In this document: positions 4,980-15,809 of the stretch, piece by piece
Layout: every line of letters starts with the position of its first letter
How positions within the stretch are numbered: the first letter of the stretch is position 1
NCBI GenBank assembly: GCA_023261695.1
Contig: JAHFON010000002.1
Span: 11,467-75,466, forward strand
Length of the DNA stretch: 64,000 bases
Reading direction: 5' to 3'
Source: Candidatus Moraniibacteriota bacterium
GTDB taxonomy: Bacteria; Patescibacteriota; Minisyncoccia; Moranbacterales; UBA1568
The notes under the pieces: generated by a model
Seen by the model: only the letters and a program-made list of their open reading frames with translations
Database searches by the model: none
What the model was told of the DNA's origin: nothing
Program-made: the position numbers and the translations under genes

Positions 4980-5267
4980 CTCATGCAAATGAAGTCAAAA
5001 TAACCCCACAGCAAACACGCCGTGTTGCAACGGGGCAGACAAACTCTTGAATGGAGAAAAGAAACTGCCATACAACACATTTTCAAAAAGTGCTAAAATA
5101 TAGACAGTAGCATTTCTATATTATTAGTTATATTAATTTATTTACATGAAATTCATATTCGTATCGCGGCCGTTTTCAAAAGAAAGTAAAAGGGAAGCGA
5201 TCAGGGAGCTTCTGGAAAATACCGTTCCCGATCGTGGCAAATAAAAAAAAGCATTTAACTAAAAGCT

Positions 5268-5579
5268 ATGCAACAAAATATTATCACTTTGAAAGACGCC
5301 GTGGAATATCAAAAAGGCGCGGTGGTCAGCAAAGAAATCCTAAAAACGTCCAATGGCACGGTCACTATTTTTGCTTTTGATGAGGGGCAGGGATTAAGCG
5401 AACACACGGCGCCGTTTAGCGTGCTGGTTCAGATTTTGGACGGCCAAGCGCAAATCAATATTGAAAAAACGCCGCATATTGTGGCAGATGGTCAGATGAT
5501 TGAATTGCCTGCCAATAAAACGCATTCCCTTCAGGCGTTGGAGAGGTTTAAGATGCTTTTGATAATGTTAAAGAAGTAA
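5268..5579 (+). CDS. cupin domain protein
   Basis: A 103-aa small beta-barrel-like sequence with His residues in the cupin_2 pattern (GLSEHTAP...HSLQA). Confidence 0.5.
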   Translation: MQQNIITLKDAVEYQKGAVVSKEILKTSNGTVTIFAFDEGQGLSEHTAPFSVLVQILDGQAQINIEKTPHIVADGQMIELPANKTHSLQALERFKMLLIMLKK

Positions 5580-9490: not shown

Positions 9491-9654
9491 AAAACTATCG
9501 TAGCAAAAGAAAGCTGACTTGACGAGACTGGGTAAATAAAGAAATTGTAGTAATACGACGCGATTTGTTTTCGAGGCAAAGGGCGGCTATTTGAACACAC
9601 GGCACGAATTGGCGGTTGTTATTTGAAGCCGTATTGATTTTGTGAAAATTAAGA

Positions 9655-10737
9655 ATGACGCGACGTATTTTTTTTGCTATGATGAACGTAAAAAATAGTA
9701 TGTATGAAAGTGGTCCTGATAATATACATCGCCAGCAGAATGCGAAAAAGGAAGTAGAGCAGAAGCGTTATTCTCGAGAGTCTGTGGATGAGGCGTGGCG
9801 GAAATTGCATTTTGAGGTGAACGGTAGGCAAGTTGAGTTGTATGGCGTTTTACACGTGCCTGAAACGCTTGAAGTTGACGAATATCGCGAAACACTGAAA
9901 CAAGCGATCGCGCGCGCTTCGCTTGTTGTGATTGAGTCTATGCCAACCGCCTCCGGAATGCATTCGGAGAGATTTATAAAATTTATACTGGAAATGGCGG
10001 AAAAATCTAGCGAGAAAATATCACGGGAGCCAATTGTGAATTTTTTTGAGACAGAAAAGTCTGGCCGATTTTTTCGCCAAATTGAAAATTTTGCTGCGAA
10101 TCTGCACAAAAAAGCGGCTATGGTAGATCCGTGGATTCAGAACATTGAACATCCAGTCGTCGTGTATGATTTGTTGCGCAGAGACTCCGATGTTCTTACC
10201 ACGAAAACAGTACTTGGAATGTTGGGGACAATAGCTTTTGCTTTTTATAATCTCACCGGCAATAAAGCGAATATAAAAAATGAACAAACGGATAACAGCC
10301 CCGGTTTGTCGGGGAAAAGCGGTTTGACGCGGAGACAATTTTTAAAAGGTTTGTCCGGGGCCGTTATGGGCGGCGGTTGGTTGTCTTCTATGGCCTCTGT
10401 GATAGACAGCAGTTCTGGGATTAGTGTGCGGGGTGGTCGCGCGGACAATCCGCTGGGTCCTTTTTTATACAATCTTCTAGATTATAGAGATGTGACTGTT
10501 GCAAAGGGACTGGATATACTAACGAAAAAAGAGTTAGGTGAAGGTCCGATCGTGATGATTTACGGCGCTGGTCACGCGTCGGCGATACGCCATTACGCTG
10601 AAGCTTCTTTGGAACGCGAGGCAAAATATACCACCTACGCGCCTTATCGCTCGGTGGATCCGCCGCAGCTACACACTTATGAGTTTGACGCGTCCAAAAA
10701 AGAATGGGTTACGGTTGAAATGGCGGATATCTTATAG
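9655..10737 (+). CDS. TraB/GumN family protein
   Basis: N-terminal VELYGVLHV...LVVIESMP and C-terminal IVMIYGAGHASAIRHY match the TraB-family GxxH signatures. The true start may be an internal Met. There is an internal RRQFLKG twin-arginine-like segment. Confidence 0.45.
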   Translation: MTRRIFFAMMNVKNSMYESGPDNIHRQQNAKKEVEQKRYSRESVDEAWRKLHFEVNGRQVELYGVLHVPETLEVDEYRETLKQAIARASLVVIESMPTASGMHSERFIKFILEMAEKSSEKISREPIVNFFETEKSGRFFRQIENFAANLHKKAAMVDPWIQNIEHPVVVYDLLRRDSDVLTTKTVLGMLGTIAFAFYNLTGNKANIKNEQTDNSPGLSGKSGLTRRQFLKGLSGAVMGGGWLSSMASVIDSSSGISVRGGRADNPLGPFLYNLLDYRDVTVAKGLDILTKKELGEGPIVMIYGAGHASAIRHYAEASLEREAKYTTYAPYRSVDPPQLHTYEFDASKKEWVTVEMADIL

Positions 10738-10774
10738 TGGGTTATAAGAAAACGCATCAAAAATTTTTAGAAAG

Positions 10775-11611
10775 CTAGAACTTAGTTGGCTTATCATATT
10801 TTCCTTCCAAGCCTTTCCACGTAATTTCAAATACTTCACGCAAAGCCTTGGCTAATTTGGGGGATTCAATGATGAGTGATTGAACGCTCTCAATGAGCGC
10901 GATGCGTACGAACTGGTCGTCGCATGATTCAATAGATACTTTAGCGCTATACATATTTTCAGGGAGAAATTTACCCGTAATTTCTGTTGTTTCTGGCAAG
11001 AGCCACTTCGCGTATGGCTTTAGTGTCGGCGTGTCCACCGTCAATCCCATCACATGGGTATGATGGCGTTCTTTGTATTCGTTCCATTCATAAAAAACTT
11101 CGTTTACTTCGGATGAAGCATCTTCAGGGTTGGCAAAAAATCCAACTATATTTTTTTCATGCAATTCCTTTTTTTTATAATCATACGCCTGTCGCAAGCC
11201 TTCAATACCTTCAAAGTACAGAACACTTGCCTTTTCAGAGGTTTCTTTTTGGAGAGACTTCAATTCCGGTAAAACACTTTTTGTTTTAAGCAGTTTCGCT
11301 TCTTGCGCTTCCAAAACAGCTTCCGGTGAACGGGCGATGTAGCGTTTTGGCTCTTCGCCGGGAACGTGTACGATTAGGCCCTTTACCACCAATTCTTCGG
11401 CAATCACATAGGCCGTCGGGCGTTTCAATCCCGCTTTTTGCGCGATCCGGTACGGGGTGGCCGGTCCAAGCTGAAGTAAAGCCAAATATATCTTTGCCTC
11501 TTTTTCACTTAATCCGAGATTTTTCAATGGTTCAATGAGATGTTGCATAGGGATGATTATGTCCAGTATACACCTATTTGTAATATTAGTCAATAATTTT
11601 GACAAATACAA
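10775..11611 (-). CDS. TrmB family transcriptional regulator
   Basis: N-terminal winged-HTH (LGLSEKEAKIYLALLQLGPATPYRIAQKAGLKRPTAYVIAEELVVKGLI) followed by a TrmB C-terminal-like region. The start may be the internal Met at 11548. Confidence 0.6.
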   Translation of the reverse strand: MYLSKLLTNITNRCILDIIIPMQHLIEPLKNLGLSEKEAKIYLALLQLGPATPYRIAQKAGLKRPTAYVIAEELVVKGLIVHVPGEEPKRYIARSPEAVLEAQEAKLLKTKSVLPELKSLQKETSEKASVLYFEGIEGLRQAYDYKKKELHEKNIVGFFANPEDASSEVNEVFYEWNEYKERHHTHVMGLTVDTPTLKPYAKWLLPETTEITGKFLPENMYSAKVSIESCDDQFVRIALIESVQSLIIESPKLAKALREVFEITWKGLEGKYDKPTKF

Positions 11612-11929
11612 CTGTCATATTGTCGAGCACTCTTTATATTAAGCCACAAAGTAGCTATATTTAGGGATATTTTTACCATAAAAATAGACTATATTATTGA
11701 CCTTTTGACGATTATTTGCTATACTGCTCTTTCAATGATGAGGACAGCAACACTCGCTTTGAAAAGTTCTTTAATTTCCATATTAAAGTTTGCGCGTTCG
11801 CTAAATCCGTATCGGCGAAATGAGAGAAGGCCTATGAGTTCGGGCGCTCTCGGCTATGCCGTGTTCCGAGACATCTCGGAATGTTTCCGAAATAACCAAA
11901 AAGTTGTTTCGGATAGTCAGAGAACTTAA

Positions 11930-12900
11930 TCTTGGACAGGGGACGTAAAATACCACAACCCCAGCGTATTGGTAACGGTCATACCAATTTCCAAGAGACG
12001 CACAAAAAATAAGTAACGAGGTGTGGTTTGTAAATAAAATGGAAAGTTACTTGCAACCATAATCGTAACCGAGCAGGAAAACCGTTTTGATGCGGCATAG
12101 GAGGGCGCAACAAAAACGGCGAGTACGTAAGCTCTCGGTGAATAACCGAAAGGAGGCCGATACTGAAAAGTGTCGCCTTTGTCACCTACAACGCAGTAGG
12201 TGAAGACCTTTCGAGCGGTTGGCACGGCTCAGACGACCGAATGGCCCTCGTGTTGCAAAACACGAAGGGCGATGGGGGTCTCAATAGAGGCCACATCGGG
12301 ACCGAGCGACGTCGTGAAGAGATCGGCATTCTCTGGGAGAAACTCCAAGAGTCACTACCCTATCTCGATCACGTCGTGGTCTACGTCGGAGCGTCAGGGT
12401 CGGAGCGAGTCATTGCACTGGCAGCACAGTTGCCTGCGTCAAAGGTCACGTTCGTCGGCTGTGATTGCGGGCTTCCTAACAAGGAGGCTCTCATCCAAGC
12501 GGCTGACTTGGACGATGCGCGGCGGATACTCTGCGAGTGCGGTGGTCGCCGAACCATGAAGTTGCTTTTTCAGAACTTCATGGAAACCGGTGAGCTCCTT
12601 CTGGCTGTGCCAGCCTAGCTCTCGCTCACCAAGAATGGTGCTCTCTGCGGAAGAGGGTTCTGGCAGTAGGCAGTAATCGGTCCTGCCAGAAGCGCTGTCA
12701 AAGGGGAAGCATTCCGCAAGTGCCCGTGCAAACCCAAGCAGGGTTCGCCCTGAGATGTCGCCACCGAAAAGCGCGGCATCGCGAAAGACTAATGCACGGC
12801 TCTACCGTCACTCTAGAACACGAGTCAAAACTGTTTGGTTGCGAGGTAAGCTGGTGGGAATAACTCGCAACCTCTTCCGCAAGGAAGACGGCAAGGTCAA
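11930..12900. other. anomalous GC-rich (~55-58%) hairpin-rich block without convincing coding frame; candidate large structured RNA/leader or horizontally acquired fragment
   Basis: Composition differs sharply from the ~40% GC flanks. Several perfect 8-10 bp hairpins: ggccctcgtg..cacgaagggc, tctggcag..ctgccaga, gttgcgag..ctcgcaac. Only short mutually overlapping ORFs in several frames, none with a Shine-Dalgarno. Confidence 0.3.
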
Positions 12901-13038
12901 CGCCGATAATGACTACCACTTTGGAGAAAAAGAATGAATCTATTTTTTTTCTCCTCTCAATTGAGATTTCAATTATGAAATTGAAGTTTCATAGAGAAAA
13001 AGTTCTTTTCAAACCTTTTCAAACAAGGAGGAATACAA

Positions 13039-13190
13039 TGAGGGAATTGAGCGGTGCAGAAATGATCGCGCGAGGACTCGGTATGCTGTTAGCGGAAAGT
13101 GTAGGAAATCAAGAGGCAATAGAGATCTGCAATGAAATGATGATAATGTTGTTCAAACTGGAAAAAACTGCAAAAAACCATCAAGGATAG
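13039..13190 (+). CDS. small protein (~50 aa), first gene of a three-gene small-protein operon
   Basis: Strong RBS aaggaggaatacaATG. Preceded by an AT-rich region with the palindrome atgaaattgaagtttcat. Confidence 0.45.
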
Positions 13191-13201
13191 GAGGAAAAAT
13201 C

Positions 13202-13510
13202 ATGGCAAAGTTGAATTTCTATCAGCTAACAGATCGTCAATCCGATGAAAGTAAGACTGTTCTTCGTGAAGGCGACAAGATGATTTTTTACCGTGAAAGC
13301 GGACTTGTTCGCTTTTCCCGAGATGGTAGGCCGCTTTACGGGTGTATGGGTGATGATAAATGTATCATTGGAAATAATAAAAGCTTTATGATTAGCGTAC
13401 TTCATCATTTTGGGATAGGCGTGGATCTGGTTGCTGAGAAAAATGATTTGATAATATATAAGCTCCGACAGTTGAGTAGTTTTTCAACGAGGTCTGCGCG
13501 AAAAGCGTGA
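13202..13510 (+). CDS. hypothetical small protein (102 aa)
   Basis: RBS aggaggaaaaatcATG. 11-nt spacing from the upstream gene. Confidence 0.5.
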   Translation: MAKLNFYQLTDRQSDESKTVLREGDKMIFYRESGLVRFSRDGRPLYGCMGDDKCIIGNNKSFMISVLHHFGIGVDLVAEKNDLIIYKLRQLSSFSTRSARKA

Positions 13511-13525
13511 GGGAGGAAGGTAAAA

Positions 13526-13828
13526 ATGGTACAGTTCTTGAGATTTGTGACTGATCTTGTAGAGGTTTGGTTGGAAGTGATGATGACAATAGTCACGACC
13601 TATCCGTGGCTTGCGTGGACTCTCGTTGTATTGGTGGTTCTTGGGATTGTTTTGGAGCTGTATTGGCAGATATTCGCCAGTCCTGAGGAGCGCCGCCGCG
13701 ATGAAGAATGCCGGCGCTATGTCAAAGAACATCGCCGTAAAGAGATGTCCGAGAGTTTGCGGCGTGAAGTGGATAGGCGGAGAGTAGTTTACTCTTCGTT
13801 ATTAAAGCCGTCGAGTAGGTGGCGATAA
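13526..13828 (+). CDS. hypothetical small membrane-anchored protein (100 aa) with highly charged C-terminal tail
   Basis: RBS gggaggaaggtaaaaATG. One hydrophobic helix (LAWTLVVLVVLGIVLELYW), then an Arg/Glu-rich tail. Confidence 0.5.
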   Translation: MVQFLRFVTDLVEVWLEVMMTIVTTYPWLAWTLVVLVVLGIVLELYWQIFASPEERRRDEECRRYVKEHRRKEMSESLRREVDRRRVVYSSLLKPSSRWR

Positions 13829-13844
13829 AGAAGGGGAAAGTTTC

Positions 13845-13889
13845 TGGGGACGAGAGAAGTAATAGCTTCACTCTCGTCCCCATTTTTAT
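13845..13889 (+). terminator. rho-independent terminator (tggggacgagag...ctctcgtcccca + TTTTT)
   Basis: A 12-bp perfect stem followed by a T-run, directly after the small-protein operon. Confidence 0.65.
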
Positions 13890-14030
13890 GATCTAATTTT
13901 AGTAACGAGTAACTTCCTAATCAAGTTTTCTATAAGTAATTCTCTGGATTGTTTTTATATCATCTTGTGGAGCCTAGATTCCCGCCTTCGCGGGAATGAC
14001 AAAGAAACAAATTTAATGTCATGTTTATAA

Positions 14031-15809
14031 TTACAGCGCGCGTTTCTTTTCCTCCTCTTTGTAACAAATGAGAGTATCGCCGACCTGGATTTTGACATTG
14101 CCTTCAAAGACGATGCCGCATTCGTTGCCTTGATTGACTTCATCTGCGTTTTGTTTGTTCTGCTGAAGATTCATCATTTTACCTTGTCCGATAATTTCTC
14201 CATCGCGTTTGATTTCAATCAGCGAGCCGCGCAACATTTTGCCGGAACTCACGCGTCCGCCGACGATCATATCGCGTTTGCCGGTTTTGAAAATGGCCAG
14301 CACGGAAAGTTCTCCGTAGTCCGTCCGTATGATTTCCGGAGGCAGGAGCGCCGCCAGTTTTTCTTTGACCGCTTCCACTAATTTGTAAATGATGTTATAG
14401 GTTTCTATTTGTATCTTGCTGGCTTCAGCCAGGCGTTTAGCAACGGAAGTCGGCTCACTATTGAAGCCCAAAATAAGAGCGCCGGCGCTTTCCGCGATTC
14501 TGACATCGGATTCTGTAATACTGCCCACGCCCGATGAAATGATGTTCAGCGCCACTTCTGGAGATTCAATGCTGGAAAGAATTTGTTCAACGGCTTCCAA
14601 CGATCCTTGCATATCGGCTTTAAGGATGAGCGTCAGTTTTTTCTTTTGGTCATCTTCTTCTTGAATTTTGCTTAATTTTTTAACGCTGGCTTCTTGGGAT
14701 TTCTCGCGCGCTAAAGTCTTGCCGCTGACGACTTGCACGACGTCATTGACTTGCGGCGCGGTATTGAATCCATAGATGATGGTCGGAACGGATGGACCGG
14801 CTTGCTCCAAATTCTTGCCGCTCCAGTCTTCAATGCGGCGGATGCGGCCGAAAGAACCTCCGCTGATAATGTCTTGGCCGACTTTGAGTGTGCCGGTACG
14901 CACCAGTGCGGTGGCCACAGGCCCCTTTTGAGGATCCAAGTGGGACTCCAGCACGATGGCCAGTCCGTCGCGTTTGGAATCGGCGCGAAAATCTTCCACT
15001 TCGGCGAGCAGAGCGATATTTTCCAGCAGTTTGTCTATACCGATATTGTTTTTGGCGCTAATTTCCGCGCACATAGTGTCGCCGCCCCATTCTTCAAAAA
15101 GAATGCCGTGCTCGGCTAATTCCTGTTTCACCCGCTCAGGTTTGGCATCCGGTTTGTCTATTTTGTTGATGGCCACTATGACCGGCAATTTGCGTTCCTT
15201 GATGTACGCGATGACTTCTTTGGTTTGCGGACGCACGCCGTCATCCGCCGCGACCACGAGAATGGCGATGTCGGCGATGGACAATCCGCGCTTACGCATC
15301 GCGGCGAAGGCCTCGTGTCCCGGAGTATCAATGAAGGTGATGATTTGTTTGCGTTTTTTCGTTTGATAGGCGCTGATGTGTTGGGTGATGCCGCCCGCTT
15401 CGCCGGCCGCGACGTTAGCTTTGCGTATCGTGTCCAGTAATGTCGTCTTGCCATGATCCACATGGCCTAAAATTGTCACGATCGGTGCGCGCGGGAGAAG
15501 ATTTTTTCCGGAACTTTTTTCTTGAGCAATGAGTTTGTCCAGCTCTTCCAGAGTAAGGCGGCCGCCCTCGGTTTTCTCTTCGGCTGGTTCTGTTTCAAAT
15601 TCCAAATCTCCCGCGATAATACTGGCGGTATCATAATCAATCTCCTCGTTGATAGTTGCCAGAATGCCGTTTTTCATCAATTCTGTAATGATAGTCGCTA
15701 CCGGCAATTGCAAAATCTCGCTCAATTTTTTGACGCTGACGGAAGAAGGGATTGTCACTTTTTTCTTAGGCTGGCTAGCGGTATCGCTAGAATTTTCCTG
15801 TGGAGACAT
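14031..15809 (-). CDS. infB: translation initiation factor IF-2 (short form)
   Basis: GHVDHGKTTLLD G1 motif, DTPGHEAF and NKIDK motifs. 592 aa. Confidence 0.9.
   Translation of the reverse strand: MSPQENSSDTASQPKKKVTIPSSVSVKKLSEILQLPVATIITELMKNGILATINEEIDYDTASIIAGDLEFETEPAEEKTEGGRLTLEELDKLIAQEKSSGKNLLPRAPIVTILGHVDHGKTTLLDTIRKANVAAGEAGGITQHISAYQTKKRKQIITFIDTPGHEAFAAMRKRGLSIADIAILVVAADDGVRPQTKEVIAYIKERKLPVIVAINKIDKPDAKPERVKQELAEHGILFEEWGGDTMCAEISAKNNIGIDKLLENIALLAEVEDFRADSKRDGLAIVLESHLDPQKGPVATALVRTGTLKVGQDIISGGSFGRIRRIEDWSGKNLEQAGPSVPTIIYGFNTAPQVNDVVQVVSGKTLAREKSQEASVKKLSKIQEEDDQKKKLTLILKADMQGSLEAVEQILSSIESPEVALNIISSGVGSITESDVRIAESAGALILGFNSEPTSVAKRLAEASKIQIETYNIIYKLVEAVKEKLAALLPPEIIRTDYGELSVLAIFKTGKRDMIVGGRVSSGKMLRGSLIEIKRDGEIIGQGKMMNLQQNKQNADEVNQGNECGIVFEGNVKIQVGDTLICYKEEEKKRAL

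What the first reader, a model, noticed from the sequence alone, without database searches (positions are those of the whole stretch)
12905..13890. Compact operon of three small proteins with textbook RBSs, a palindromic operator and a strong terminator, immediately downstream of the GC-rich block
Three consecutive ORFs (about 50, 102 and 100 aa) each have an AGGAGG-type Shine-Dalgarno at optimal spacing and intergenic gaps of 11-15 nt. The AT-rich stretch 12940-13030 contains the palindrome atgaaattgaagtttcat, an operator-like site, and the unit ends in a 12-bp-stem terminator. None of the three proteins matches a family I recognise. The third is membrane-anchored with an Arg/Glu-rich tail. 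The arrangement of small, tightly coupled, separately terminated genes beside an anomalous structured region is typical of toxin-antitoxin, abortive-infection or phage-exclusion modules. It is my strongest candidate for an undescribed system in this window.
Basis: partly seen in the sequence, partly recalled or inferred. Interest (0 to 1): 0.7.

Follow-up and report, generated by a model that had tools for sequence, protein, structure and literature searches.

The report
Small-protein operon behind conserved leader RNAs
The three small genes are a real operon, but they show no sign of being a toxin-antitoxin or anti-phage module: they are the cargo of a 4.5-kb inserted island in a Moranbacteria (CPR) genome, and only the middle gene recurs elsewhere, always with a TrmB-type regulator and two undescribed structured RNA elements.

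Summary
ORF1 (13038-13190, 50 aa), ORF2 (13202-13510, 102 aa) and ORF3 (13526-13828, 100 aa) each have a GGAGG Shine-Dalgarno 6-9 nt upstream. The gaps are 11 and 15 nt, and a strong intrinsic terminator follows (13845-13890).

The interpretation mostly fails. There are no TA, Abi, defence or phage family hits, and the trio is not conserved as a unit. ORF1 and ORF3 have no database homologs. ORF2 belongs to a rare family of about 10-13 proteins of 90-105 aa, under purifying selection, with no informative fold match.

The "palindromic operator" is the apex of an RNA hairpin that covaries in 11 of 13 pairs and is followed by GUUCUUU. This 5'-UTR module recurs before ORF2-family and neighbouring cassette genes in other CPR-like contigs. 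In one such array, hammerhead ribozymes occupy the same position.

Just upstream lies a second undescribed RNA motif, "R1" (12837-12920): three hairpins plus a pseudoknot, with 8 of 24 pairs compensatory.

The block 9491-14030 is absent between infB and cca in eight sibling genomes. The closest ORF2 locus (L098) repeats the layout trmB <-> promoter -> R1 -> hairpin/GUUCUUU -> ORF2.

Best reading: a horizontally acquired, TrmB-linked accessory operon expressed through a long structured leader. The protein functions are unknown.

The parts
9655..10737 (+). 360-aa ORF, the first gene of the inserted island. It has only a weak TraB/PrgY/GumN match.
   Evidence: Pfam PF01963 E=0.0011, below the curated cut-off. 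It is absent from the infB-cca interval of the sibling genomes.
10775..11548 (-). TrmB-family winged-helix regulator. The likely start is the ATG at 11548, not the TTG at 11611. It is divergent from the leader/ORF1-3 transcription unit.
   Evidence: PF01978 E=2.3e-16. 27-30% identical TrmB genes lie 2.4-3.8 kb from ORF2 homologs in L085, L087 and L088. A weak-Pfam TrmB is divergent from the ORF2 homolog in L098.
11565..11593 (-). Promoter-like site for trmB (TTGACT-17-TATACT).
   Evidence: 10 of 12 consensus matches.
11697..11725 (+). Promoter-like site (TTGACC-17-TATACT with an extended TG). It is the likely start of the leader + ORF1-3 transcript.
   Evidence: 10 of 12 matches with TG. No terminator-like site lies on the + strand between it and ORF1. 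A first GTTCTTT copy follows at 11766.
11732..12330 (+). Highly structured 5' part of the GC-rich block (leader RNA candidate).
   Evidence: RNA folding z = -3.6 for 11732-12030 and -5.0 for 12031-12330, with 0 of 200 shuffles as stable. No Rfam match.
12241..12618 (+). Ambiguous 125-aa ORF inside the GC-rich block.
   Evidence: Coding-like GC1/2/3 of 0.66/0.41/0.64 and a codon score of +0.11. Against it: no SD, no homolog in related loci, called only in one Logan assembly, and AF2 pLDDT of 54.6.
12837..12920 (+). R1: a conserved structured RNA motif. H1 is 12837-12872, H2 is 12873-12888, H3 is 12889-12905, and a pseudoknot joins the H1 loop (12853-12857) to the 3' tail (12916-12920).
   Evidence: 89-95% identical to two copies in L086. 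Also present in L089/L090 and L098-L100. 24 pairs are 99.2% paired and 8 carry compensatory changes, while slid controls give 38-60% paired. There is a single copy in the window. No Rfam match.
12923..12954 (+). A/U-rich hairpin A (GGAGAAAAAGAAU...AUUUUUUUUCUCC). It takes the place of the GC-rich, terminator-like hairpin found in other copies of the module.
   Evidence: Folding of 12915-13045: z = -3.3. Comparison with other loci.
12955..12998 (+). Hairpin B of the conserved 5'-UTR module.
   Evidence: 81% identical to L085 5897-5962, directly upstream of an ORF2 homolog. In a 14-copy alignment, 13 pairs are predicted and 11 have compensatory changes. For the 78 nt upstream of GTTCTTT at 13002 (hairpins A and B together), sense-strand dG is -27.1 against -15.2 kcal/mol for the reverse complement.
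13002..13008 (+). Conserved single-stranded GUUCUUU box that follows the hairpin (or, in L088, a hammerhead ribozyme) 17-55 nt before the SD.
   Evidence: TCTTT is invariant and the preceding GT nearly invariant across 16 aligned copies. About 28 instances occur in ORF2-family loci and only one functional-looking copy in the 64-kb window.
13038..13190 (+). ORF1, a 50-aa predicted helical protein specific to this lineage.
   Evidence: SD AAGGAGG ends 6 nt upstream. Codon score is +0.24 in frame and negative in the other five frames. It forms a singleton cluster. It is absent from L098, L004 and L085, where the module abuts ORF2 directly.
13202..13510 (+). ORF2, the conserved core gene. It belongs to an undescribed family of 90-105-aa proteins.
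   Evidence: 13 hits in 1.84 billion representatives, of which 10 are small family members. A profile search returns 10. Invariant residues are D25, F38, R40, L45, D52, K53, H69, I72, Y86 and L88. dN/dS is about 0.19 between L098 and L004. AF2 gives pLDDT 78.5 and pTM 0.70. No informative fold match.
13526..13828 (+). ORF3, a membrane-anchored 100-aa protein with an Arg/Glu-rich tail.
   Evidence: SD GGGAGG ends 9 nt upstream. It has a TM segment and a charged tail. It has no homolog in 5.8 billion proteins. There is a weak tail similarity to the L086 835-1197 product: 43% over 35 aa, phmmer E=1.3e-5 in a small ORF set.
13845..13890 (+). Intrinsic terminator that closes the operon.
   Evidence: A 16-pair stem followed by AUUUUUAU. 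The centroid energy is -25.7 kcal/mol and z = -4.0.

Best explanation
ORF1-ORF2-ORF3 are the protein-coding end of a horizontally acquired accessory locus of about 4.5 kb (window 9491-14030), inserted between cca and infB of a Moranbacteria-like (CPR) genome.

Shown directly:
- The locus pairs a TrmB-family regulator gene with a divergent sigma-70-type promoter (11697-11725).
- A leader of about 1.3 kb follows and ends in two conserved RNA elements. The first is R1, a three-hairpin pseudoknotted motif. The second is a covarying hairpin followed by GUUCUUU.
- Three SD-led, closely spaced genes and an intrinsic terminator complete the unit.
- The conserved core across genomes is trmB + R1/hairpin-GUUCUUU + ORF2. 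ORF1 and ORF3 are lineage-specific passengers.

Inferred:
- TrmB controls the divergent promoter.
- The whole leader and the three genes form one transcript.
- The hairpin/GUUCUUU module is an RNA-level processing, stabilising or translation-control element that defines the 5' end of each cassette mRNA. The basis is that in a related array (L088) type III hammerhead ribozymes sit at exactly that position.
- R1 is a cis-regulatory leader element. It could be a ligand- or protein-sensing aptamer, a read-through (antitermination) element acting on the hairpin that always follows it, or a ribozyme.

The proteins themselves have no assignable biochemical function. ORF2 is a small beta-rich protein with invariant D, R, DK and H residues. 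ORF3 is a membrane protein. ORF1 is a short helical peptide.
For: Island:
- In L005, L007, L008, L009, L010, L013, L015 and L016 the cca homolog follows infB within about 10-135 nt.
- L012 carries a different insertion at the same site.
- SD use is atypical for the host.

ORF2 family and selection.

Recurrent TrmB linkage: window, L085, L087, L088 and L098.

Parallel architecture in L098: trmB(-), promoter, AGUUCCUUGAA, a 93-aa gene, R1, a GC hairpin, hairpin-GUUCUUU, SD and the ORF2 homolog.

R1:
- Covariation in 8 of 24 pairs, 99.2% paired.
- R1 is 89-95% identical between the window and L086. The synonymous sites of the two ORF2 genes are saturated, with pS 0.93.

Hairpin module:
- 11 of 13 pairs covary, and a U.G wobble is conserved.
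- Stability favours the sense strand.
- Specificity: there is one copy in the 64-kb window and none with hairpin context in the 80 infB loci.

Hammerheads in the equivalent position: L088 3138-3192 and 3535-3589 score E=1.5e-6 and 3.6e-6, and the sequence reads ...CGAAACAGAAAAAGUUCUUU.

Promoter present and no + strand terminator before ORF1. Structured leader. Terminator.
Against: - No expression data exist. The single-transcript model, TrmB control and any processing are inferences.
- R1 is known from only five distinct sequences, so part of its conservation could reflect recent transfer.
- The L088 hammerheads score 42.6-43.9 bits, below Rfam's gathering score of 48.5.
- The 125-aa ORF in the GC-rich block has a coding-like composition. 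The 'leader' may therefore contain a gene.
- L086, the largest array, shows no TrmB gene in the 10 kb available.
- ORF1 and ORF3 have no homologs. Their reality rests on SDs, codon bias and gene calls only.
- The L098 TrmB does not align with the window TrmB by tblastn.
Confidence: 0.55

Rival explanations
1. The three genes form a toxin-antitoxin, abortive-infection or phage-exclusion module. The membrane protein ORF3 or ORF2 acts as the toxic effector, and a small partner neutralises it.
For: - The genes are small, translationally coupled and separately terminated, and they sit in an acquired island.
- ORF3 has a TM segment plus a charged tail, and a weak PHROG holin hit at E=0.0015.
- A weak PADLOC LeoBC hit scores E=0.011.
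- A hicAB pair lies next to the ORF2 homolog in L098.
Against: - No significant hit was found in PADLOC, Pfam, NCBIfam or PHROGs.
- The trio, or any pair from it, is not conserved. ORF2 homologs stand alone next to ffh, UPF0102, DUF4116 and clpP.
- ORF1 and ORF3 are orphans.
- No antitoxin-type DNA-binding domain is present.
Confidence: 0.1
2. Only ORF2 is a real gene. ORF1 and ORF3 are chance ORFs flanking it inside a noncoding, structured region.
For: - ORF1 and ORF3 have no homologs anywhere.
- In L098, L004 and L085 the RNA module abuts the ORF2 homolog directly, and a different 28-aa ORF follows it.
- Their codon scores (+0.24, +0.11) lie below the host mean of 0.29.
Against: - Both have GGAGG at 6 and 9 nt from an ATG, in a genome where this is rare.
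- Only the annotated frame scores positive among the six frames.
- The gaps of 11 and 15 nt and the terminator placed right after ORF3 fit a three-gene unit.
- Independent assemblies call all three genes.
- The ORF3 tail resembles a cassette protein in L086.
Confidence: 0.1
3. The repeated hairpin/GTTCTTT elements and R1 are DNA-level recombination sites of an integron-like or other cassette-shuffling system. The window holds one such cassette array.
For: - L085, L086 and L098 share 75-95% identical noncoding modules in shuffled order, between unrelated small co-oriented ORFs.
- L086 carries many intergenic repeats.
- Different genes follow the same leader in L089 and L090.
Against: - No integrase or recombinase appears in any locus.
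- GTTCTTT does not fit the attC core GTTRRRY. This comparison rests on the sequence and on established knowledge of attC sites.
- The modules lie upstream of SDs, on the sense strand.
- Mismatches in the stems are G.U on the sense strand only, and a U.G wobble is conserved. A pseudoknot also covaries. All of this points to RNA.
- Hammerhead ribozymes substitute for the hairpin.
Confidence: 0.06
4. The operon is a prophage or lysis-cassette remnant, with ORF3 acting as a holin.
For: ORF3 gives a weak PHROG holin hit (phrog_4237, E=0.0015) and has a TM-plus-charged-tail architecture. A KilA-N protein lies next to trmB in L087.
Against: - There are no endolysin, capsid, terminase or integrase genes nearby.
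- R1 and the ORF2 family were not found in 2.9 million viral contigs.
- The leader region (11700-13040) has no blastn match in 50,697 phage records.
Confidence: 0.04

Closest known systems
Hammerhead/twister-punctuated operons of small genes in bacteria and phages (ribozyme-associated gene arrays). This comparison is drawn from my own knowledge of Perreault et al. 2011 and Weinberg et al. 2015, which I did not re-read here.
   Same: Related arrays (L088) carry type III hammerheads between small co-oriented genes of unknown function. In the window, a structured RNA module occupies the same position immediately 5' of the same GUUCUUU box and SD.
   Different: The window has no hammerhead core (CUGANGA...GAAA) and no Rfam ribozyme hit. 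The hairpin would need a trans-acting nuclease if it is cleaved at all. The link to a TrmB regulator and the R1 motif has not been described, as far as I could find.
RNase III processing hairpins between genes of the phage T7 early operon (established knowledge).
   Same: Long, imperfect, sequence-related hairpins lie directly upstream of each cistron's ribosome-binding region in a polycistronic unit.
   Different: No cleavage has been shown. Here the hairpin is paired with an invariant single-stranded GUUCUUU box, and often with a preceding terminator-like GC hairpin.
Cis-acting leader RNAs: riboswitch aptamers, and processive-antitermination RNAs such as HK022 put or the Bacillus EAR element (established knowledge).
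   Same: R1 is a compact, pseudoknotted, highly conserved element in the 5' leader. In all five distinct copies a stem-loop follows it immediately, ahead of the coding region.
   Different: R1 matches no Rfam family, EAR and the riboswitch classes included. No ligand is known, no alternative-pairing platform could be demonstrated, and the following hairpins mostly lack clear U-tracts.
Type II toxin-antitoxin operons.
   Same: Small, overlapping or closely spaced genes with their own terminator, sitting in accessory DNA.
   Different: There is no recognisable toxin or antitoxin domain. The gene pair is not conserved. There are three genes rather than two. Regulation appears to come from a separate TrmB gene and a long leader, not from autoregulation at an operator.
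Integron gene-cassette arrays.
   Same: Co-oriented small ORFs of unrelated function are separated by related structured repeats, with the order shuffled between genomes.
   Different: There is no integrase and no attC core. The repeats lie 5' of the genes, on the sense strand, and have RNA-type covariation.

Membership tests
Type II toxin-antitoxin module | The toxin and/or antitoxin belongs to a recognised superfamily (for example RelE, MazF, PIN or HicA toxins; RHH, HTH or AbrB antitoxins). | tested here: not met
   There are no Pfam, NCBIfam or PADLOC hits above threshold for ORF1-3. The ORF2 model has no toxin- or antitoxin-like fold match.
Type II toxin-antitoxin module | The gene pair co-occurs across genomes. 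| tested here: not met
   ORF2 homologs occur without ORF1 or ORF3 in L085-L088, L091-L097 and L098.
Type II toxin-antitoxin module | One product is toxic and is rescued by its partner. | not testable with these tools
   This needs expression assays.
Known anti-phage defence systems (PADLOC-DB) | A match to a defence-system protein model. | tested here: not met
   The only hit is ORF3 against LeoBC at E=0.011 and 12.9 bits.
Phage holin / lysis cassette | A holin family match together with an adjacent endolysin. | tested here: not met
   phrog_4237 scores only E=0.0015. There is no lysin gene nearby. There are no viral-contig relatives.
Hammerhead ribozyme, type III (RF00008) | The conserved core CUGANGA ... 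GAAA with stems I-III. | tested here: not met
   The window has no match. Two near-threshold matches with a visible core occur in the related array L088, at the position equivalent to the window hairpin.
Any Rfam 15 family (for R1, the hairpin module and the GC-rich leader) | A covariance-model score at or near the gathering threshold. | tested here: not met
   The best score is 21 bits against a gathering score of 49.9, for freshwater-2 on either strand of the A/U-rich hairpin. The canonical module copies in L094 give no hit.
Riboswitch (for R1) | A conserved aptamer whose structure is supported by covariation. | tested here: met
   8 of 24 pairs are compensatory, including one in the pseudoknot, and 99.2% of cells are paired. 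Only five distinct sequences are available.
Riboswitch (for R1) | An expression platform with mutually exclusive pairing, and a ligand. | tested here: inconclusive
   A hairpin always follows R1. No convincing alternative pairing or U-tract was found. The ligand cannot be tested here.
Integron cassette / attC | An IntI integrase nearby, and R''/R' core sites (RYYYAAC / GTTRRRY) on a folded bottom strand. | tested here: not met
   No integrase appears in any locus. GTTCTTT does not fit GTTRRRY. Structure is favoured on the sense strand.
TrmB-family transcriptional regulator (gene 10775-11548) | An N-terminal TrmB winged-helix domain (PF01978). | tested here: met
   E=2.3e-16, 59.8 bits against a cut-off of 25.6.
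Rho-independent terminator (13845-13890) | A G+C-rich stem-loop followed by a U-tract. | tested here: met
   A 16-pair stem followed by AUUUUUAU, z = -4.0. The simple scan missed it because of its loop and bulge geometry.

The most novel reading that the evidence does not exclude
The window and its relatives would define an undescribed, CPR-restricted expression system. A TrmB-type regulator drives arrays of small, mostly secreted or membrane proteins. Each mRNA would be released or controlled by interchangeable RNA modules that share a GUUCUUU box: a hammerhead ribozyme, a covarying hairpin, or a third 'GCUCUUCCGAG...GAAGAGC' type. R1 would be a new class of functional RNA that gates the array, either a riboswitch, an antitermination element or a self-cleaving ribozyme. 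The ORF2 family would be the conserved effector.
Probability: 0.2. Interest if true: 0.8.

Novelty: new variant of a known kind. Interest (0 to 1): 0.55.

Why it matters
CPR/Patescibacteria genomes are small and poorly understood, and almost nothing is known about how they regulate accessory genes.

This locus gives concrete handles that can be tested:
- Two compact RNA motifs have strong covariation and are absent from Rfam.
- One of them sits exactly where related arrays carry hammerhead ribozymes. This suggests functional equivalence between a ribozyme and a nuclease-dependent hairpin in mRNA maturation.
- A rare, conserved small-protein family is repeatedly linked to a TrmB regulator.

It also corrects a tempting misreading. 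Small coupled genes with a palindrome are not, in this case, a TA or defence module with an operator.

Tried and rejected
- Family searches for ORF1-3 and the 125-aa ORF in Pfam, PHROGs, PADLOC and NCBIfam gave only sub-threshold noise: TraQ, holin, LeoBC, MptE.
- Word-based homology searches found one homolog for ORF2 and none for ORF3. Only the exhaustive HMMER search and a profile search revealed the ORF2 family. Three large repeat proteins in that list (P0010, P0014, P0016) were judged spurious repeat matches.
- Back-translated scans for the ORF2 family in JGI metagenome contigs and in viral contigs found nothing. Two earlier calls failed because the alignment was too diverse.
- Sequence and profile searches against PDB gave nothing.
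- A single-sequence AF2 model of the 125-aa ORF had too low confidence (pLDDT 54.6) to search with.
- blastn of the leader against phage genomes found no match.
- I considered group I/II intron, tRNA-like and known large ncRNA readings of the GC-rich block. Rfam shows none.
- The cloverleaf-like closing stem predicted for R1 is not conserved in the other copies, so I rejected it.
- I looked for a sigma-70 promoter inside the hairpin/GUUCUUU module. No acceptable -35/-10 pair is shared among the copies (and inspection).
- I looked for target-site duplications at the island ends. The flanks are too diverged to align.
- Literature searches for ribozymes or structured RNAs in CPR found nothing relevant.
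Full report
**1. Observation**

The window region 12905-13890 contains three co-oriented ORFs:
- ORF1, 13038-13190, 50 aa.
- ORF2, 13202-13510, 102 aa.
- ORF3, 13526-13828, 100 aa.

Each ATG has a GGAGG core ending 6, 7 or 9 nt upstream, and the gaps are 11 and 15 nt. This is not chance. GGAGG occurs 0.77 times per kb per strand. Only 2 of 20 long housekeeping genes in the window have an SD-like sequence. ORF1-3 account for 3 of only 20 hits where GGAGG sits 4-11 nt before a start codon opening at least 45 codons, and many of the other hits are internal starts of longer ORFs.

In a codon-usage log-odds score trained on the window's long genes, only the annotated frame is positive for each ORF. 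The scores are +0.24, +0.03 and +0.11. Host genes score 0.29 +/- 0.14 and off-frames -0.6 +/- 0.2.

The unit ends in a 16-pair stem followed by AUUUUUAU (13845-13890). Its centroid energy is -25.7 kcal/mol and z = -4.0. The palindrome at 12976-12993 and the upstream block of 55-59% GC are also real.

**2. Known families**

None of the three proteins matches a known family:
- Pfam, PHROGs, PADLOC and NCBIfam give only sub-threshold hits.
- ORF3 finds only itself among 5.8 billion proteins.
- ORF1 is a singleton cluster.
- Identical copies of the locus occur in three other assemblies of the same population.

**3. ORF2 is a real, conserved gene**

An exhaustive HMMER search of 1.84 billion representatives gave 13 hits. 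Ten of them are proteins of 90-105 aa, and a profile search recovered 10.

The alignment has ten invariant residues besides the initiator Met: D25, F38, R40, L45, D52, K53, H69, I72, Y86 and L88. Two recognisable motifs are (G)DDK and H(F/L)GI.

Selection is purifying. Between L098 and L004, dN/dS is about 0.19. Between the window and all homologs the synonymous sites are saturated (pS 0.81-0.93) while pN is 0.25-0.34.

**4. The locus is an insertion**

The window comes from a Moranbacteria-like CPR genome, since its IF-2 is 71-80% identical to those of Moraniibacteriota MAGs.

In eight sibling genomes the CCA-adding enzyme gene follows infB within about 10-135 nt. In the window, 4.5 kb separates the two genes (9491-14030). 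This block holds:
- A 360-aa ORF with a weak TraB/GumN match.
- A TrmB-family regulator (PF01978, E=2.3e-16).
- The GC-rich block.
- ORF1-3.

L012 carries a different insertion at the same site. No relatives were found on viral contigs or in phage genomes.

**5. Genomic contexts of the ORF2 family**

The trio is not conserved. ORF2 homologs lie next to ffh, UPF0102, DUF4116, clpP or hicAB, without ORF1 or ORF3.

What does recur is a TrmB-family gene within 0.8-3.8 kb, in the window, L085, L087, L088 and L098.

The closest homolog with long context is in L098 (60% identical by tblastn, 65% in the HMMER search). It reproduces the window layout:
- trmB on the minus strand, divergent from a promoter.
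- AGUUCCUUGAA, an SD and a 93-aa gene.
- An R1 copy and a GC hairpin.
- The hairpin-GUUCUUU module, an SD and the ORF2 homolog.
- A GGGAGGAAGG SD and a 28-aa ORF.

The conserved core is therefore trmB + RNA elements + ORF2. ORF1 and ORF3 are lineage-specific. ORF3 has only a weak tail resemblance to a two-TM cassette protein of L086.

**6. The 'operator' is an RNA hairpin**

Window 12948-13014 is 81% identical to the sequence directly upstream of the L085 ORF2 homolog. The same module has three parts: an often terminator-like GC hairpin, a long hairpin flanked by AUCUUU and AGAGAU, and GUUCUUU followed 17-55 nt later by the SD. It precedes ORF2-family genes and their neighbours in L004, L085, L086, L087, L088, L094, L096/97 and L098, about 28 instances in all. 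The 64-kb window has only one such copy, and the 80 infB loci have none with hairpin context.

In a 14-copy alignment RNAalifold predicts 13 pairs. Eleven of them carry compensatory changes, and one position is a U.G wobble in 10 of 14 copies.

Stems are markedly more stable on the sense strand, for example -44.2 against -30.1 kcal/mol. In the window, the 78 nt upstream of GTTCTTT (hairpins A and B together) fold at -27.1 against -15.2 kcal/mol for the reverse complement. G.U pairs are confined to the sense strand. This is the signature of an RNA structure, not of a protein-binding DNA palindrome.

In L088, two type III hammerhead ribozymes (E=1.5e-6 and 3.6e-6, just below gathering score, core visible) sit in exactly this position...CUGAUGAG-UCCAAAAGGA-CGAAAC-AGAAAAAGUUCUUU. 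L085 and L086 carry a third module type that ends in the same box. I infer that the module acts at the RNA level, in processing, 5'-end definition or translation control. This step has not been shown.

**7. R1**

Immediately upstream, at 12837-12920, lies a motif that is 89-95% identical to two copies in L086. It is also present in L089/L090 and L098-L100.

R1 has three hairpins and a pseudoknot between the loop of the first hairpin and the 3' tail. Across five distinct sequences, 24 pairs are 99.2% paired and 8 carry compensatory changes, including one in the pseudoknot. Slid controls give 38-60% paired.

Its conservation far exceeds that of the linked protein genes, whose synonymous sites are saturated. 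In L089 and L090 the same promoter-leader-R1 unit precedes unrelated genes.

R1 has no Rfam counterpart. Its role as a riboswitch, an antitermination element or a ribozyme is open.

**8. Transcription model (inferred)**

Two sigma-70-like promoters face away from each other. One, at 11593-11565 on the minus strand, serves trmB. The other is at 11697-11725 on the plus strand.

No terminator-like site lies on the plus strand before ORF1. The first 600 nt of the leader fold far better than shuffles, with z = -3.6 and -5.0. No acceptable promoter is shared within the hairpin/GUUCUUU module.

The 125-aa ORF at 12241-12618 is ambiguous. Its composition is coding-like. Against it, it has no SD, no homologs in the related loci and a low-confidence model.

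**9. Verdict**

The operon is real and uncharacterised.

The better-supported picture is an acquired, TrmB-linked accessory operon whose expression runs through undescribed structured RNA elements. These elements are shared by a small network of CPR cassette arrays.

The functions of the proteins remain unknown. The RNA motifs are the most tractable and most novel part of the locus.

Noticed in passing
window 11732-12330: The 5' half of the GC-rich block folds far better than shuffled controls (z = -3.6 and -5.0). It has no Rfam match. It may be a large structured leader or a separate ncRNA.
   Followed up: partly
window 12241-12618: A 125-aa ORF has coding-like GC1/2/3 (0.66/0.41/0.64) and a predicted alternating beta-alpha topology. 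It has no SD and no homolog in the related loci, and the AF2 pLDDT is 54.6. Whether it is a gene or an RNA remains unresolved.
   Followed up: partly
whole window (for example the starts of 673, 2286, 5595, 14031-15809, 18130): The host genome largely lacks Shine-Dalgarno sequences: only 2 of 20 long genes have one. The trmB promoter lies only about 17 nt from its ATG. This suggests leaderless or non-SD initiation is the norm, and it makes SD-led genes stand out as foreign or special.
   Followed up: partly
window 11600-11617: The palindrome TGACA-N8-TGTCA lies between the divergent trmB and leader promoters. TGTCA/GACA repeats also occur in the equivalent L098 intergenic region (5190-5300). 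It is a possible TrmB operator.
   Followed up: no
L088 3138-3192 and 3535-3589: Two type III hammerhead ribozymes lie between small genes downstream of a TrmB gene. They score 42.6-43.9 bits, just under the gathering score of 48.5. Each is followed by AAAAGUUC(U/A)UU.
   Followed up: partly
L086 700-800, 1715-1811, 4444-4531, 5575-5650, 8185-8264; L085 4700-4790: A third repeated intergenic module, GCUCUUCCGAG...GAAGAGC followed by GAGCGAAAUUGUUCGCUC, ends in the same GUUCUUU box. It has no Rfam hit and may be another structured or catalytic RNA.
   Followed up: no
L098 5745-5778; L085 5805-5838; L086 5952-5985: A conserved element of about 34 nt, GGAGCGGGCUGAUAUCCCGCUUGGCAACAGAAGG (a hairpin plus GGCAACAGAAGG), lies upstream of R1 or of the ORF2 homolog's SD.
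   Followed up: no
L088 5162-5845 and L089 726-1415: These are homologous proteins of about 228 aa with a receiver-like N-terminus (MKILVIDDS...) and a conserved 'VVTDxxHHxHPASA' segment. One lies next to an ORF2 homolog and the other directly after an R1 leader. They form another recurrent cassette family with no Pfam match for the family (the L088 protein has only a weak Anti-TRAP hit, E=0.00037).
   Followed up: no
L012 9743-12450: A different insertion occupies the same infB-cca site in a sibling genome. It holds a 367-aa protein and a 204-aa winged-helix-like protein. The intergenic site appears to be an insertion hotspot.
   Followed up: partly
window 9655-10737: The 360-aa island ORF contains a Tat-signal-like motif (LTRRQFLKG) near residue 225, in the middle of the protein. 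It may be a fusion or a mis-called start.
   Followed up: no
window 13966-14002: A 37-nt segment with the hairpin tcccgccttcgcggga, just downstream of infB, is 89% identical to L012 117-153. It may be a small conserved repeat or the infB terminator.
   Followed up: no
L098 6323-6409 and L004 468-505: A 28-aa ORF (MNEMSNAKAIKISHLEKLVNNKAFTATP) follows the closest ORF2 homologs, behind the same GGGAGGAAGG SD context that precedes ORF3 in the window. Its N-terminus loosely resembles that of ORF1 (MRELSGAEMI). The minus-strand 'gene' called at L004 2-85 overlaps the plus-strand hairpin/GTTCTTT module and is probably spurious.
   Followed up: no
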